Source of the DNA: Octopus vulgaris
Lineage: Eukaryota
Direction: 5' to 3'
Length of the DNA stretch: 64,000 nucleotides
NCBI GenBank assembly: GCA_951406725.2
Contig: OX597819.1
Location: 110,794,001 to 110,858,000, forward strand
A program made the position numbers and the translations under genes. The notes below the pieces were generated by a model, which saw nothing but the letters and a program-made list of their open reading frames with translations, searched no databases and was not told where the DNA came from. The first letter of the stretch is position 1, and every line of letters starts with the position of its first letter. Below are positions 54,622 to 60,969 of this stretch, piece by piece.

Positions 54622-54830
54622 ACTTTATTTAAAGCAGCAGAAAATTCAACAAAACCTGTTACTCTGAGTTTCCCGTTGCCGTTCATCGGATAGTTTTTGA
54701 ACGGCAACGGGAAACTCAAGTAACAAGTTTTGTTGAATTTTCTGCTGCTTTAACTAAAGCATATTACTCTACCACTGGTATTTGAGTACTCTTTTTTCCA
54801 CCTTGTTTCACATTTATGTGTTTACTCCGG
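54622..54830. mobile_element. Miniature inverted-repeat element with hammerhead variant, in (TA)n
   Basis: Arms 54622-54685 and 54698-54760 plus a ~70-bp unpaired tail; relative at 59231-59401. Confidence 0.75.
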
Positions 54831-55010
54831 TATATATATATACTGTATATATATTATGTGAAATAGAAAGATGAATAATCTTGTTGCAGATTAATCAAAA
54901 GTTTAACCGATACCTTGGTAGCAAAAATCACAGCAGAAGACAGCACGGTTGGAGGTACAACCATATGGTGTTGCAACCGTGCGTTGGTGCGGATAATTGA
55001 ATTTTAATAT

Positions 55011-55149
55011 TATTATTAGTGAATTGAAGAAATGGAGTTGAACGAAGATTGAACAGAAATCGTTTTATTTCATTTTATTTTATTGAATGAAATAAAACGA
55101 TTTCTGTTCAATCTTCGTTCAACTCCATTTCTTCAATTCACTAATAATA
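55011..55149. repeat. Perfect 64-bp inverted repeat with 11-nt spacer
   Basis: 55011-55074 is the exact reverse complement of 55086-55149. Confidence 0.92.
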
Positions 55150-56582
55150 ATAATAATAATAATATATATATATAATTGTTCAATATCAACAGCCAATGGA
55201 CACGAGGGAGGCCGGTTTATAGCTGAAAGACAACGCTTGATACAAAATAGATTACTCTGATTATAGTACTTGAATGAAAGTATGAAAGGCAAAGTTGACC
55301 TCTGTGGGATTTGAACTGAGAACGTAAAGACGGACCGATTCATAATGCGGAGTATGATCCCTACAGTCGTGTCATATCTTGATAAATTTATATCAGGATT
55401 GAACCTAAAGTCGTTGGGTTAACTTACCTACGTGCTTGCTGTAGGTCTGCTTATACAGGGTTCACCTAGAACTACACGAAATGAGGAGGACGACGATAAC
55501 GACGACAGCCATGAAGACGACGACGACGACCACCACAACCAGCAACTGTACCACTGCCATAACCATTGCCACCACCACCACCACCATCACCACCATCAGC
55601 ACTAAACAACCCGACAGACCTATAACATCACTAACAACAACACCAACCGCCACCCTTATTGCCAACAACTCAAACAGTATAAACACTATTACATCACCCA
55701 CCAACCACCACCACTACCACCACAACCACCCCTCTAAGAAGAATATCAGCAGCTATCCTTAACACTAACAACAAAAGCTGTATCAATATTGTTACCACCA
55801 ACACAGGAGATACCACCACCACCACCGCCACCATTGCTACGATAATCGCCCACTACCGCTACCACCACCACTAACATCAGCAACAATATGCACCACCCTC
55901 AACAGCCACATTTATCATTAACACCACCATCACCACAAGAAGAAGAAGAAGATGATGAAGAAGAGAGCCCAAATGATTTGATGGTACAAGATTGAGGACA
56001 GTACAACTTGACCTTTCACGTAAACGGGGTCACTGTGAAAACAAGGAAATATAGCTCCACTTTGTGAGATTGAGGCTGGTTAATGGTTAGCTGTGTAGGA
56101 GGTAGTGGTAGTAATTATGGAGGTGGTAGCGGTGGTGTGGTGGTAGTGGCGGTGGTAGCAGTGGTAGTTATGGTGGTGGTAGTAGTAGCTGTGGTGATAG
56201 TGGTGATGATGGCGATTGTAGTGGTAGTGGTAGTGTTGTTGTTGTTGTTGATGGTGGTAGTGGTGGTGGCGGCGGTAGTGGAGGTAGTGGTGGTTATGGT
56301 GGTGATGGCATGGATAAGGTTTACGTTAAGGATTCATCATGGCGTTGATGGTAGTACAGTTCGGTTTTAGTCGTCTATTGGTCTGAGTGTGAATGGTGCT
56401 GCTGTAAGGGCTTCAAGAGAGAGGAAGATAGATAGATAGATAGATAGATAGATAGATAGATAGATAGATAGATAGATAGATAGAGAGAGAGAGAGACAAA
56501 CAGACAGAGACAGAGAGGGAGAAAGAGAAACAGAGGAAGAGAGAGATAGAAAAATAAAAAGAAAGATATATATATATACATA

Positions 56583-57005
56583 TTCTTTTATTCTTTTAAT
56601 GCGGCCATGCTGGAGCACCGCCTTTAGTCGAATGAATCGACCCCAGGACATAAGCCTGTACTATTGGTCTCTATTGCCGAACCGCTACGTTACGGGAACG
56701 TAAAAACACCAATACATACATACATACATACATACATACATACATACATATACATATACATACATATACATATACATACACACACACACACACACACACA
56801 CACACACACATATATATATATATATATATATATATATATATATATATATATACGACGGGTTTCTTTCAGTTTCCCTCTACTAAATTCACTCACAAGGTTT
56901 TGGTCGGCCCGAGGCTATAGCAGAAGACATTTGCCCAAGGTGCTACGCAGTGGGAGTGAAATCCGAACCATAAGGTTGGGAAGCAACGTACTTACCACAC
57001 AGGCA
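56583..57005 (-). mobile_element. SINE family A
   Basis: GCGGCCATGCTGGAGCACCGCC...microsatellite...CGACGGGTTTCTTTCAGTTTCC...CTTACCACAC. Confidence 0.8.
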
Positions 57006-57974: not shown

Positions 57975-58380
57975 TCCGTGATTCGTTATTGAATTTTACC
58001 TTACGTCTCCATCGCCGTTGCATTCCGGCAAATAGTTTTTATGTTATTATTATGCAATCACAGACTGACGATTTCGATCTGTCGAAGGTTCCTTTCAGGT
58101 ACTTGATGTTGATAAGACACGAAAATGGCGAAATATCGATATTCACCACTCCTGAATTCGATCGGATGCGAGTTGTCTCACCTGCCTATGACTTCCAAGT
58201 GTTTTAACACCCAGTGTTTTGAGGGAGTCGAGCCTCGAGCGCTATGCTGCAGCGAACTGGCGAACACACAAACAAAACAAATACATTGAGTATGTGCGGG
58301 CTGTAATACATATGTGTGTGTGCATGTGTGTTTGTGTGTGTATACACATACATACATACACACATATATATGTATATATG

Positions 58381-59204
58381 GTTGGCATCCTTTCTGTCTC
58401 GGGAGACAATGGAGTTGCGCATAAAGTAGTCTAGTCCGGCTTTTATATTTCATGTCCTGATACATTTCCTGCTGTGGCTGTGTAGTCCTATCCTGGACAA
58501 ACACTCCCTCTGGCACGTACCGCAAATGTAGCGAAGACTGTTCCTGGCTGGTTGTAATGCCATAGTCGCTTGTTGACGTCTCTTCTTTTCTTTCCATTTC
58601 TCCTCTCTCTCTCTGTCACTCCTTTGTATTCCCTCTTTTACGGTACGTCGCCATTCTCCACGGTTGCCGGCAACTGCCTCCCAACCGCTAATATTGATGT
58701 TGCAGGCCTTCATGTCCCTTTTGCAAGCATCCTTGTAACGTAAGATCGGTCTACCCACAGACCTAGTACTCCTAGCAAGCTCTCCGTAGAATATGTCCTT
58801 GGGGATTCTGCCATCATTCATACGGCTAACATGCCCAAGCCATCTCATACGTCTTTGTGTGAGGAGTGCAAACATGCTTGGTATTCCTGCTTGCCTGAGG
58901 ACATCTTTGTTGGGGATATGATTCTGCCATTTGATGCGGAGGATTTTTCGGAGGCAGCGCAGGTGAAAGATGTTTAGGCGACGCTCTTGGCGTGTGTATA
59001 GCGTCCAGGTCTCACTTCCATACAGTAGAGTGCTGAGTACACATGCCTGGTAGATCTTCATTTTCGTGGTCTTGGTCAGCTTATTGTTGTCCCAAGCCCG
59101 TTTGGAGAGTTGAGCCATCGCAGCAGCTGCCTTGCCAATGCGTATATTGAGCTCAGCGTCAAGGGATAGGTTGTAGGTGACGGTAGAGCCCAGATAGGTA
59201 AACT
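58381..59204 (-). mobile_element. 5'-truncated RTE (BovB-like) LINE between TA-rich tracts
   Basis: Short 3' UTR GCGCAACTCCATTGTCTCCCGAGACAGAAAGGATGCCAAC; ORF described below. Confidence 0.88.
58450..59202 (-). CDS. RTE ORF C-terminal fragment (RT thumb region and zinc finger)
   Basis: FTYLGS, RIGKA, TKMKIYQACVLSTLLYGSETW, RWLGHVSRM, RIPK, GRP, CGTC...SRIGLHSH...C; no stops. Confidence 0.9.
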   Translation of the reverse strand, partial: FTYLGSTVTYNLSLDAELNIRIGKAAAAMAQLSKRAWDNNKLTKTTKMKIYQACVLSTLLYGSETWTLYTRQERRLNIFHLRCLRKILRIKWQNHIPNKDVLRQAGIPSMFALLTQRRMRWLGHVSRMNDGRIPKDIFYGELARSTRSVGRPILRYKDACKRDMKACNINISGWEAVAGNRGEWRRTVKEGIQRSDREREEKWKEKKRRQQATMALQPARNSLRYICGTCQRECLSRIGLHSHSRKCIRT

Positions 59205-59264
59205 TTATATATATATATATATATATATATACTTTATTTAAAAGCAGCAGAAATCTAACAAAAG

Positions 59265-59302
59265 CTGTTACTCAGAGTTTCACGTTCCCGTTCGTCGGAC
59301 AG
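59265..59302 (-). ncRNA. Compact type-I hammerhead variant (U4C)
   Basis: CUGU-CCGACGA-ACG-GGAA-CGU-GAAAC-UCUGA-GUA-ACAG; helix I CUGU/ACAG extends to AACAAAA/UUUUGUU. Confidence 0.7.
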
Positions 59303-60969
59303 TTTTGTTAACAGCTTTTCTTATATTTCTGATGCTTTTAAATAAAGCATTTTACTCTACCTCTTTTTTCCACCTTGTTTCACATTTATGTGCTTACACG
59401 GTATATATATATATACATATATATGTAGATAGATAGATAGATAGAGAGAGAGACAAAATGAGAGAGAAAAAAAGAGAGAGAAAGGAAGGGGAGTAACAGA
59501 CAAACAGACCGACATGCAGACTCGAACATGCAAACGGGTTTATCCTGTGGTTGTAAAATGTTGTTTGGTTGCTCCTTATCCATAGTTTAGGCCTGACCGA
59601 TGATGAAAATCATTCATAATTTTCCCTACTCTGTCTAGGACTAGTTTATCAAGCGAATTCGCCTTACTTAAAAGCGTTTGGGGTGGGGAGCCGGTGGATT
59701 TGAGGGTAGTGTGGCTGCTATTTCAAGAACATGGAACTGTGCAGCGTAGATCTTCAATCAAAATGTGCAAGTTTATGTTTGTCACCGTTTGTATTAAGGG
59801 AGATAGATGGAAAGATAGGAGGAGGAGGAGGAGAAATAAAGACGTGGGGGGGGGGGGGAGGCAGAAAAAGTTATTTGTGTATTTTATATATATATATATA
59901 TATGTGTGTGTGTGTGTATGCATATGTATATATACATATGCTCATACATATACGCATATATATATATATGTGTGTGTGTGTGTGTATAAACATACATATA
60001 TATACATATATATATATATACATATCTATGTATATATGCACATATATATATATATGTGTGTGTATATATTTATTTATATGTATATAAATATATATATATA
60101 TATATATATATATATATATATATATATATATATATATATATATATATATATATATAAATATATATACATACATACATATATATATACACACACTTTCACA
60201 TATATATATACAAACATGCATACGTGTGTGTGTTAGAGAATAAGAGAGAGAGAAAGAGAGAGAGAAAGTGCGGGAGAGAGGGGAGAGAAAGTGTGTGAGA
60301 AGAGAGTGTTGAAGGAAGAGGAGATCTAATATGTAGGTAACAGTTTGGTTCCAGTCAACATTTCACACGGATGGCAACAATTAGACTCCAGCAAACCGGA
60401 AATGGCAGTTTTAGTTTTGGGTATCACTGTCACATAACTTCCGGCAGATGACCCACCCACCATTACCACTACCACCAACACCAACTCCTATTCTATCTAG
60501 CTCCTCTACAACAATATATACCACAATACTACCACCCATACTATGTGCCTTTATGTAGGAACAACCATTGCAACAACTACCATTGCAACTACTACTACTA
60601 CTACTACTACTACTACTACTACTACTACTAGCTTTTAACGCCTTCTTAAGCTAATGAGGGAGCATCTGCAATGGAGGTACACAATCATAGGCAAACTGCG
60701 GTCTGTGTGACTTTCTGAATTACTTTGAAGAATTTTAGTAGTGCGGTGCACCTGATGATGAGCCAGGCCTCATGAAGTCCTCATTTCGAAAAAAAAAAGG
60801 TTGCCCAATCTCTGCTAACCTGCTAGAAATAGCAGCTAATTCATCGTAAAATAGCGCTCTATCGTCTTTATTGAAAAGGGTTTGGGGAAATGTCTGAGAC
60901 AGTAATGTGAATTTATTTAGGTGGTAGATATGATATGCCTCCTGGTTGATCACCAACCTACCATATGTT

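What the first reader, a model, noticed from the sequence alone, without database searches (positions are those of the whole stretch)
54622..59401. Two related mini-elements share a U4C hammerhead with a conserved GNRA loop
54656-54693(-): CCGAUGA-ACG-GCAA-CGG-GAAAC-UCAGA-GUA. 59265-59302(-): CCGACGA-ACG-GGAA-CGU-GAAAC-UCUGA-GUA. Differences fall mainly at the free N7, the N of the GNRA loop and the centre of palindromic helix III (ACUC-N-GAGU), as expected under structural selection. Both have C instead of the normally conserved U4.
Basis: partly seen in the sequence, partly recalled or inferred. Interest (0 to 1): 0.7.

Follow-up and report, generated by a model that had tools for sequence, protein, structure and literature searches.

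The report
Penelope retrotransposon stubs, variant hammerhead
Both mini-elements are short back-to-back end pieces of an abundant Penelope-like jumping gene whose predicted self-cutting RNA motif carries C in place of the usual core U in its older generations and U in its youngest intact generation, which suggests that this letter likely mattered little for spreading; cutting is untested.

Summary
The two motifs are real, and both have C4. They are not elements in their own right: each is a head-to-head stub of the pLTR of a Hydra-clade Penelope-like retrotransposon, inserted in (TA)n. An intact parent (727-residue open frame, hammerhead in both pLTRs) is in the same genome. C4 is the true state of five older subfamilies (121 of 131 sampled arms), but the youngest, intact subfamily has canonical U4 (49 of 50) and is nested among C4 copies on the RT tree. 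Stub 5' ends pile up 17 nt upstream of the core, a probable transcription start, with no excess at the cleavage site. Both window copies are predicted to be masked by their own fold-back. The layout is published, and U4C is known from one viroid. This scan already noted U4C Penelope stubs on other DNA, in this genome and others. What this adds is a natural C4-to-U4 switch within one lineage.

The parts
54623..54699 (-). Copy 1, untailed arm: pLTR from 10 nt upstream of C3 to the first RT start site (ends AATAAAG, then (TA)n); subfamily D
   Evidence: (93% to the intact element's pLTR)
54656..54693 (-). Copy 1 hammerhead motif with helix I strands. Core 54660-54689, C4 at 54688, predicted cut between 54660 and 54659. 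A-G mismatch at 10.1-11.1; private break in helix I at 2.2
54698..54830 (+). Copy 1, inverted tailed arm: starts inside the core (2-nt overlap with the other arm); 71-nt tail at 54760-54830 ends at the second RT start site, then (TA)n
   Evidence: 95% to the intact element
59232..59309 (-). Copy 2, untailed arm: pLTR from 11 nt upstream of C3 to AATAAAG; subfamily B
59265..59302 (-). Copy 2 hammerhead motif with helix I strands. Core 59269-59298, C4 at 59297, predicted cut between 59269 and 59268. Identical to its subfamily majority
59309..59401 (+). Copy 2, inverted tailed arm: starts 2 nt before the cut site at a short palindromic junction; tail 59348-59401 carries a 16-nt deletion
54492..54622 (.). 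(TA)n/(CA)n microsatellite left of copy 1 (target; (TA)n continues right of 54830)
59207..59231 (.). (TA)n target left of copy 2 ((TA)n continues right of 59401)

Best explanation
Both mini-elements are head-to-head stubs of the end repeat (pLTR) of a Hydra-clade Penelope-like retrotransposon, likely made in one insertion event by two reverse-transcription starts on the uncut front end of the element's mRNA, and their C4 hammerhead is an inherited subfamily state that likely behaved almost neutrally for spreading. Shown: the match to the intact parent, the tailed and untailed ends in (TA)n, one tail per pair, the pile-up of 5' ends 17 nt before C3, C4 in five older subfamilies and U4 in the youngest. 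Inferred: transcription starts at about -17 from an internal promoter. The element's protein nicks both strands of (TA)n and primes one cDNA at AATAAAG and one at the end of the tail. Both run back through the uncleaved hammerhead towards the RNA 5' end and are joined by short complementary ends. In the master element the fold stays under weak selection, likely as a slow, dimer- or protein-dependent ribozyme, while position 4 drifted U to C before the oldest subfamily and back to U by an easy CpG transition. The inserted stubs are dead copies whose motif is predicted to be masked by the second arm.
For: Parent: locus L139 has partial pLTR + tail + 727-residue open frame + 3' UTR + pLTR, with the hammerhead in both pLTRs. 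Both window copies align to its pLTR. Hydra-clade traits of PMC8557442 section 11 are present in the protein. Exactly one arm carries the tail in 44 of 46 inverted pairs from the 90 loci picked by hammerhead pattern (binomial P 3e-11), and in 106 of 115 pairs over all 231 loci. Independent sequencing runs show the same two ends followed by (TA)n (table 7). Two RT start sites bounding the tail, cutting and extension of both strands, and use of unprocessed RNA were shown in vitro for another PLE (PMC11167929). 5' ends: 48 of 118 arms start at -17 to -11 and 3 at -30 to -18. Genome-wide, 814 matches at -17 (68 of the first 100 rows true ends by eye) against 43 at -19 (40 true ends). No excess at the cut site: about 30 true ends in 95 rows, against about 24 in the first 100 of 134 rows two bases upstream. 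Subfamily ladder by flank divergence 13.5, 9.4, 5.7, 2.1, 1.2, 0.6%, with C4 in 4/5, 17/19, 29/33, 15/17, 56/57 and 1/50 arms. RT tree: the 9 U4-linked copies form one clade (100/99) nested above C4-linked copies. N4 changed about as late as the free N7. Fold-back beats the hammerhead fold by about 58 and 12 kcal/mol.
Against: No cleavage, transcript or start site was observed. The start site is inferred from DNA ends, and short palindromes at -14 (CTAG, TTAA) inflate some junction counts. The tail is as conserved between subfamilies as the hammerhead (6 of 66 vs 5 of 38 positions change), so low change alone does not prove ribozyme selection. No helix shows a compensatory change. The tree is rooted at the midpoint only, and 11 of its 25 rows had no linked hammerhead seen. 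Samples were picked by similarity to the two copies or by exact pattern, which favours young copies; 26 of 207 arms were unclassified. A published alternative explains head-to-head repeats by self-priming on an antisense template (PMC3846280).
Confidence: 0.72

Rival explanations
1. C4 was selected as a brake. The hammerhead lies about 14-51 nt behind the mRNA start, so fast cutting would remove the cap and the RT template. A slowed C4 core with a weakened helix II would cut only when dimerised or bound by the element's protein.
For: C4 persisted over about 0.15 substitutions per site of RT backbone, although it is a CpG that decays to U in 5 of 43 older copies. U4C lowers activity in vitro yet supports a viroid (PMC3088659). 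PLE hammerheads are slow, and one needs protein (PMC4209133; PMC11167929). When U4 returned, 11.1 became A (A-A mismatch), which could be a compensating weakening.
Against: The free N7, also a CpG, stayed C nearly as long, so persistence needs no selection. The U4 subfamily amplified to thousands of copies with no more cut-site ends than the C4 subfamily D.
Confidence: 0.15
2. The conserved letters are kept at DNA level as downstream core-promoter elements (or as a binding site for the element's protein), and the ribozyme is vestigial in this lineage.
For: The motif starts 13 nt behind the inferred start site. Penelope of Drosophila has an internal promoter with Inr and DPE (PMC2377424). There is no covariation, the 10.1-11.1 pair is lost in two subfamilies, and a core letter changed.
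Against: The changes that did occur hit exactly N7, the N of GNRA and the centre of the helix III palindrome (P = 0.0012). Both strands of helices I and III stay fixed, out to +51, and the same frame with different stems II is found across Hydra elements (PMC8557442 File S2).
Confidence: 0.1
3. The mini-elements are a non-autonomous family (retrozyme- or MITE-like) that spreads as a unit and uses its own hammerhead.
For: Many loci resemble each copy over its full length, and some junctions recur.
Against: Junctions vary widely. The recurring ones sit at short palindromes next to the common 5' edge. Stubs track the subfamilies of the coding element. There are no tandem units, and the motif is predicted to be masked by the second arm.
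Confidence: 0.03

Closest known systems
Hydra clade of C-terminal-endonuclease Penelope-like elements, esp. Hydra-2_Amil (Craig et al. 2021, PMC8557442; passages, section 11, supplement parts 1-2 and a search of it read)
   Same: RWK, DKT, CxCX5C linker, CxxC before E and CxH after N in the protein; (TA)n target; inverted truncated copy with a tail at one end; hammerhead with the same helix I and helix III letters as listed for Hydra-2_aMil
   Different: All Hydra hammerheads in their File S2 have U4 (their descriptor required it). Here helix II has only 2-3 bp with a GNRA loop, C4 in five subfamilies and a 71-nt tail (30-40 nt in the paper). Hydra-1_Obim has a different hammerhead, so this is a different family
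[quoted passage not shown]
   Same: Type I, palindromic helix III that suits a dimer, mostly solo truncated copies, some pairs on opposite strands
   Different: The text read reports U3-A8 but not C4. Their motifs have a longer helix II, a conserved G10.1-C11.1 pair and an extra base after A9; here 10.1-11.1 is A-U, A-G or A-A
U4C hammerhead of a viroid (cited in Perreault et al. 2011, PMC3088659; passages read)
   Same: Same core substitution; reported as much slower in vitro yet compatible with replication
   Different: A sporadic variant in a ribozyme with tertiary contacts; here it is the majority state of thousands of genomic copies in a minimal ribozyme, later replaced by U4
Poseidon element PAc in vitro mechanism (Frangieh et al. 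2024, PMC11167929; parts 1-2 of 4 read)
   Same: Two RT start sites bounding the tail, AT-rich target, both strands extended, unprocessed RNA as template
   Different: Different PLE clade; its hammerhead overlaps the ORF start; the one-tail-per-pair rule and a fixed 5' edge were not reported in the parts read

Membership tests
EN+ Penelope-like element | Single ORF with RT followed by a GIY-YIG-type endonuclease region | tested here: met
   727-residue open frame in L139 with YRDDG. Atlas look-alikes at 0.96-0.99 carry GIY-YIG, RVT_1 and HTH_animal in part of their members. Pfam and PDB sequence searches gave no hit, so this rests on motifs and on likeness, by eye, to Hydra proteins
EN+ Penelope-like element | Partial-tandem pLTRs, inverted 5'-truncated copy, optional tail | tested here: met
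EN+ Penelope-like element | Hammerhead motif in the pLTR | tested here: met
   motif in both pLTRs of L139, L140, L123, L124, L135, L122
Hydra clade | RWK motif, DKG changed to DKT, CxCX5C linker, CxxC and CxH beside conserved E and N | tested here: met
   all read in P0001 against the definition in PMC8557442 section 11
Hydra clade | Insertion into (TA)n | tested here: met
   261 of 289 tailed or untailed arm ends followed by TA repeats
Hydra clade | Placement in the Hydra clade on an RT tree with reference PLEs | not tested
   reference proteins were seen only in the paper's supplement and compared by eye
Hammerhead ribozyme (type I) | Three helices around the core | tested here: met
   copy 2: helix I 4 bp plus extension, helix II 3 bp, helix III 3 bp as monomer. 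Copy 1 has mismatches at 2.2 and 11.1
Hammerhead ribozyme (type I) | Consensus core CUGANGA / GAAA / UH | tested here: not met
   C at position 4 in both copies; met in the youngest subfamily
Hammerhead ribozyme (type I) | Compensatory covariation in the helices | tested here: not met
   paired positions are invariant between subfamily majorities except 11.1, which breaks its pair
Hammerhead ribozyme (type I) | Self-cleavage after N17 | not testable with these tools
   no assay possible; genomic 5' ends show no excess at the site
Non-LTR retrozyme | Tandem head-to-tail units, each with a hammerhead | tested here: not met
   copies are head-to-head pairs or solo arms; definition from bioRxiv 10.64898/2026.07.22.740005, part 1 of 5 read

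The most novel reading that the evidence does not exclude
This lineage records a natural on/off tuning of a ribozyme that sits in the first 50 nt of its own mRNA: C4 was kept for five waves as a brake against decapping the template, and the return to U4 was tolerated only together with a weakened helix II. The two-arm stubs are also the direct footprint of a dimeric RT copying two sense RNAs from two fixed start sites, contrary to the antisense self-priming model.
Probability: 0.17. Interest if true: 0.6.

Novelty: new variant of a known kind. Interest (0 to 1): 0.3.

Why it matters
What PLE hammerheads do is an open question: the papers read call their function unclear, and one shows that cleavage is not needed for insertion in vitro. 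This family gives a dated series of natural core variants in one master lineage, with a C4 and a U4 version differing at two core positions, and intact coding copies exist for the U4 version. That makes 'does the ribozyme need to cut?' directly testable. It also shows that descriptors requiring CUGANGA would miss nearly half of this family's motifs. The two window copies themselves are ordinary dead insertions.

Tried and rejected
Rfam: no hammerhead hit; only microRNA-like hairpin noise. Pfam on fragments and on the whole protein, and the PDB sequence search: no hit. Sequencing runs: no RNA holder listed; all runs laid were contigs, which cannot show starts, ends or strand. Runs with two other organism labels hold both C and U at position 4; this does not date the switch. 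Apparent arm starts at the cut site (7 arms, plus 7 at -1 or -2) were rejected as overlap between the two helix I strands and bias from the query. The start-position tally was faulty (TA flanks in the references) and was redone. Naiad identity was considered from recall and rejected (C-terminal endonuclease region, DKT). The paper by Lunse, Weinberg and Breaker on small PLE-linked hammerhead variants (listed in the references of PMC6765202) was not held under three identifiers. It may already list C4 cores, so 'not in print' is not claimed. Literature searches that found no C4 PLE hammerhead: (listings; papers read are named elsewhere). Supplements of the 2014 paper and of the bioRxiv preprint were not seen. 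PMC3376415 (passages) gave nothing on U4C.
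Full report
Observation. Both motifs are in the window as quoted, on the minus strand, with cores at 54660-54689 and 59269-59298 and C at position 4. Including the helix I strands, the copies differ at five of 38 positions, not three: N7, the N of the GNRA loop and the helix III centre, and also 11.1 (A-G mismatch in copy 1) and 2.2 (helix I break in copy 1). Each motif lies in one arm of a fold-back. Copy 1 spans 54623-54830 and copy 2 spans 59232-59401, both between (TA)n tracts.

The family. The window lies in a 2.8-Gb genome of 227 contigs. I take it to be octopus-like from recall of its repeat landscape and from earlier scan notes; no call of mine names it. A search with copy 2 returned 78 matches from 40 of 460 candidates scored. 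The 30 loci fetched share the ends and vary at the junction. Walking upstream reached a decayed RT gene with YRDDG. A search with that piece found copies with a 727-residue open frame. Locus L139 reads: partial pLTR with hammerhead, tail, ORF, 3' UTR, pLTR with hammerhead, (TA)n. Both window copies align to this pLTR. The protein has RWK, DKT, a CxCX5C linker, CxxC before the conserved E and CxH after the conserved N, the Hydra-clade traits in section 11 of PMC8557442, and by eye it follows the Hydra proteins of that paper's supplement. Pfam and PDB sequence searches gave nothing. Atlas look-alikes carry GIY-YIG and RT families in part of their members.

C4 or U4. With the helix II sequence of copy 2 fixed, there are 1,693 exact matches, and 10 of the first 100 rows have U4. 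With the four variable positions left open, C4 has 3,561 and U4 4,079 exact matches, controls 0; 96 of the first 100 U4 rows are one identical sequence. Of 207 sampled arms covering the motif, 181 were classed by the sequence downstream of the cut site only, and 26 stayed unclassified. Six groups had flank divergence of 13.5, 9.4, 5.7, 2.1, 1.2 and 0.6%, with C4 in 4 of 5, 17 of 19, 29 of 33, 15 of 17, 56 of 57 and 1 of 50 arms. Copy 2 belongs to the third group and copy 1 to the fifth. The sample is biased by how loci were picked, and exact patterns undercount old copies, so C4 may still be the majority of all copies. A tree of 721 RT columns from 25 copies is a ladder: the 9 U4-linked copies form one clade (100/99) with end branches up to 0.004, nested above C4-linked copies with end branches of 0.021-0.079. 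The root is at the midpoint only, and 11 rows had no linked motif seen. The Hydra hammerheads in the paper's File S2 all have U4, including Hydra-2_aMil with the same helix I and III letters, but its descriptor required U4. The likely path is U to C before the oldest group, then back to U in the youngest (inference).

Selection on the fold. Between the majorities of the five best-sampled groups, 5 of 38 motif positions change (N4, N7, GNRA N, 11.1, helix III centre), against 11 of 26 upstream, 8 of 33 downstream and 6 of 66 in the tail; some flank differences may be gap placement in homopolymer runs. That all three free sites are among the five has P = 0.0012. Against it: there is no compensatory change, the 10.1-11.1 pair is A-G and then A-A in the two youngest groups, and the tail is equally conserved. 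In 43 older arms not picked by a motif pattern, changes are CpG-driven (46 of 341 cells against 53 of 1,242) and indifferent to pairing (32 in paired, 21 in unpaired non-CpG columns, about 4% each). N4 stayed C about as long as the free N7, so its persistence needs no selection (inference).

How the stubs arise. Arm 3' ends fall at two sites, AATAAAG and the end of a 71-nt tail, nearly always followed by TA repeats (table 7). Exactly one arm has the tail in 44 of 46 inverted pairs from the 90 pattern-picked loci, a few of which may be chance pairings. The layout is published (PMC3846280 passages; PMC8557442 passages), and two RT start sites bounding the tail were shown in vitro (PMC11167929). 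An earlier scan note suggested a fixed start point, so I tested it. 48 of 118 arms start at -17 to -11 from C3 and only 3 at -30 to -18; 20 run further up. Genome-wide, in the two youngest groups, the -17 pattern gives 814 matches, of which 68 of the first 100 rows are true ends by eye (the rest are a sequence variant), against 43 matches at -19 with 40 true ends. The site resembles an initiator (consensus recalled). Internal promoters are reported for Penelope (PMC2377424 passages). At the predicted cut site there is no excess: about 30 true ends in 95 rows against about 24 in the first 100 of 134 rows at a control two bases upstream, split roughly evenly between the C4 and U4 groups (counted by eye). 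So the copied RNA was uncut, in both versions. That fits the in vitro finding that unprocessed RNA is the main template; it does not show that the ribozyme never cuts.

The window copies. Folded as whole minus-strand RNAs, the fold-back is favoured over the hammerhead fold: -107.7 against -49.3 kcal/mol for copy 1 and -47.7 against -35.8 for copy 2. They are predicted inactive in place.

What is known. U4C is cited once in the held library, as a viroid variant with much lower in vitro activity that still supports infection (PMC3088659 passages). PLE hammerheads are slow and thought to work as dimers (PMC4209133; PMC6765202 passages). The most relevant variant survey could not be read. Earlier unchecked notes of this scan describe U4C Penelope stubs in this genome and in others; one calls a family fixed for C4, which does not hold for the family studied here.

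Verdict. A real feature, explained as retrotransposon debris of a known clade and layout, with a core variant that is inherited but not family-wide. New variant of a known kind; interest 0.3.

Noticed in passing
window 55004-55156: A third fold-back (94% over 153 nt) in a (TAA)n tract between the two copies, unrelated in sequence, with relatives in loci L211, L136 and L058; probably a stub of another element family.
   Followed up: partly
window 58380-59207, minus strand: 3' fragment of an RTE-like LINE (label from recall) with about 250 open codons; its truncated 5' end abuts the (TA)n that holds copy 2.
   Followed up: partly
rows (G000, many contigs): 32 of 43 arms matching at -19 have G just before the element. 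Many are explained by overlap with the other arm, but some follow plain TA flanks, as an untemplated cap-derived G would.
   Followed up: no
window 6679-6752 and 20253-20307: Weak matches (77-78%) to the 3' UTR of the intact element, possibly older fragments or a shared repeat.
   Followed up: no
window 1087-1532 and 11439-11741: Old, diverged inverted repeats (about 68%).
   Followed up: no
L139:2651-4849: The intact young subfamily has many copies with a full 727-residue open frame and near-identical sequence (98-100% in the RT), so it may still be active.
   Followed up: partly
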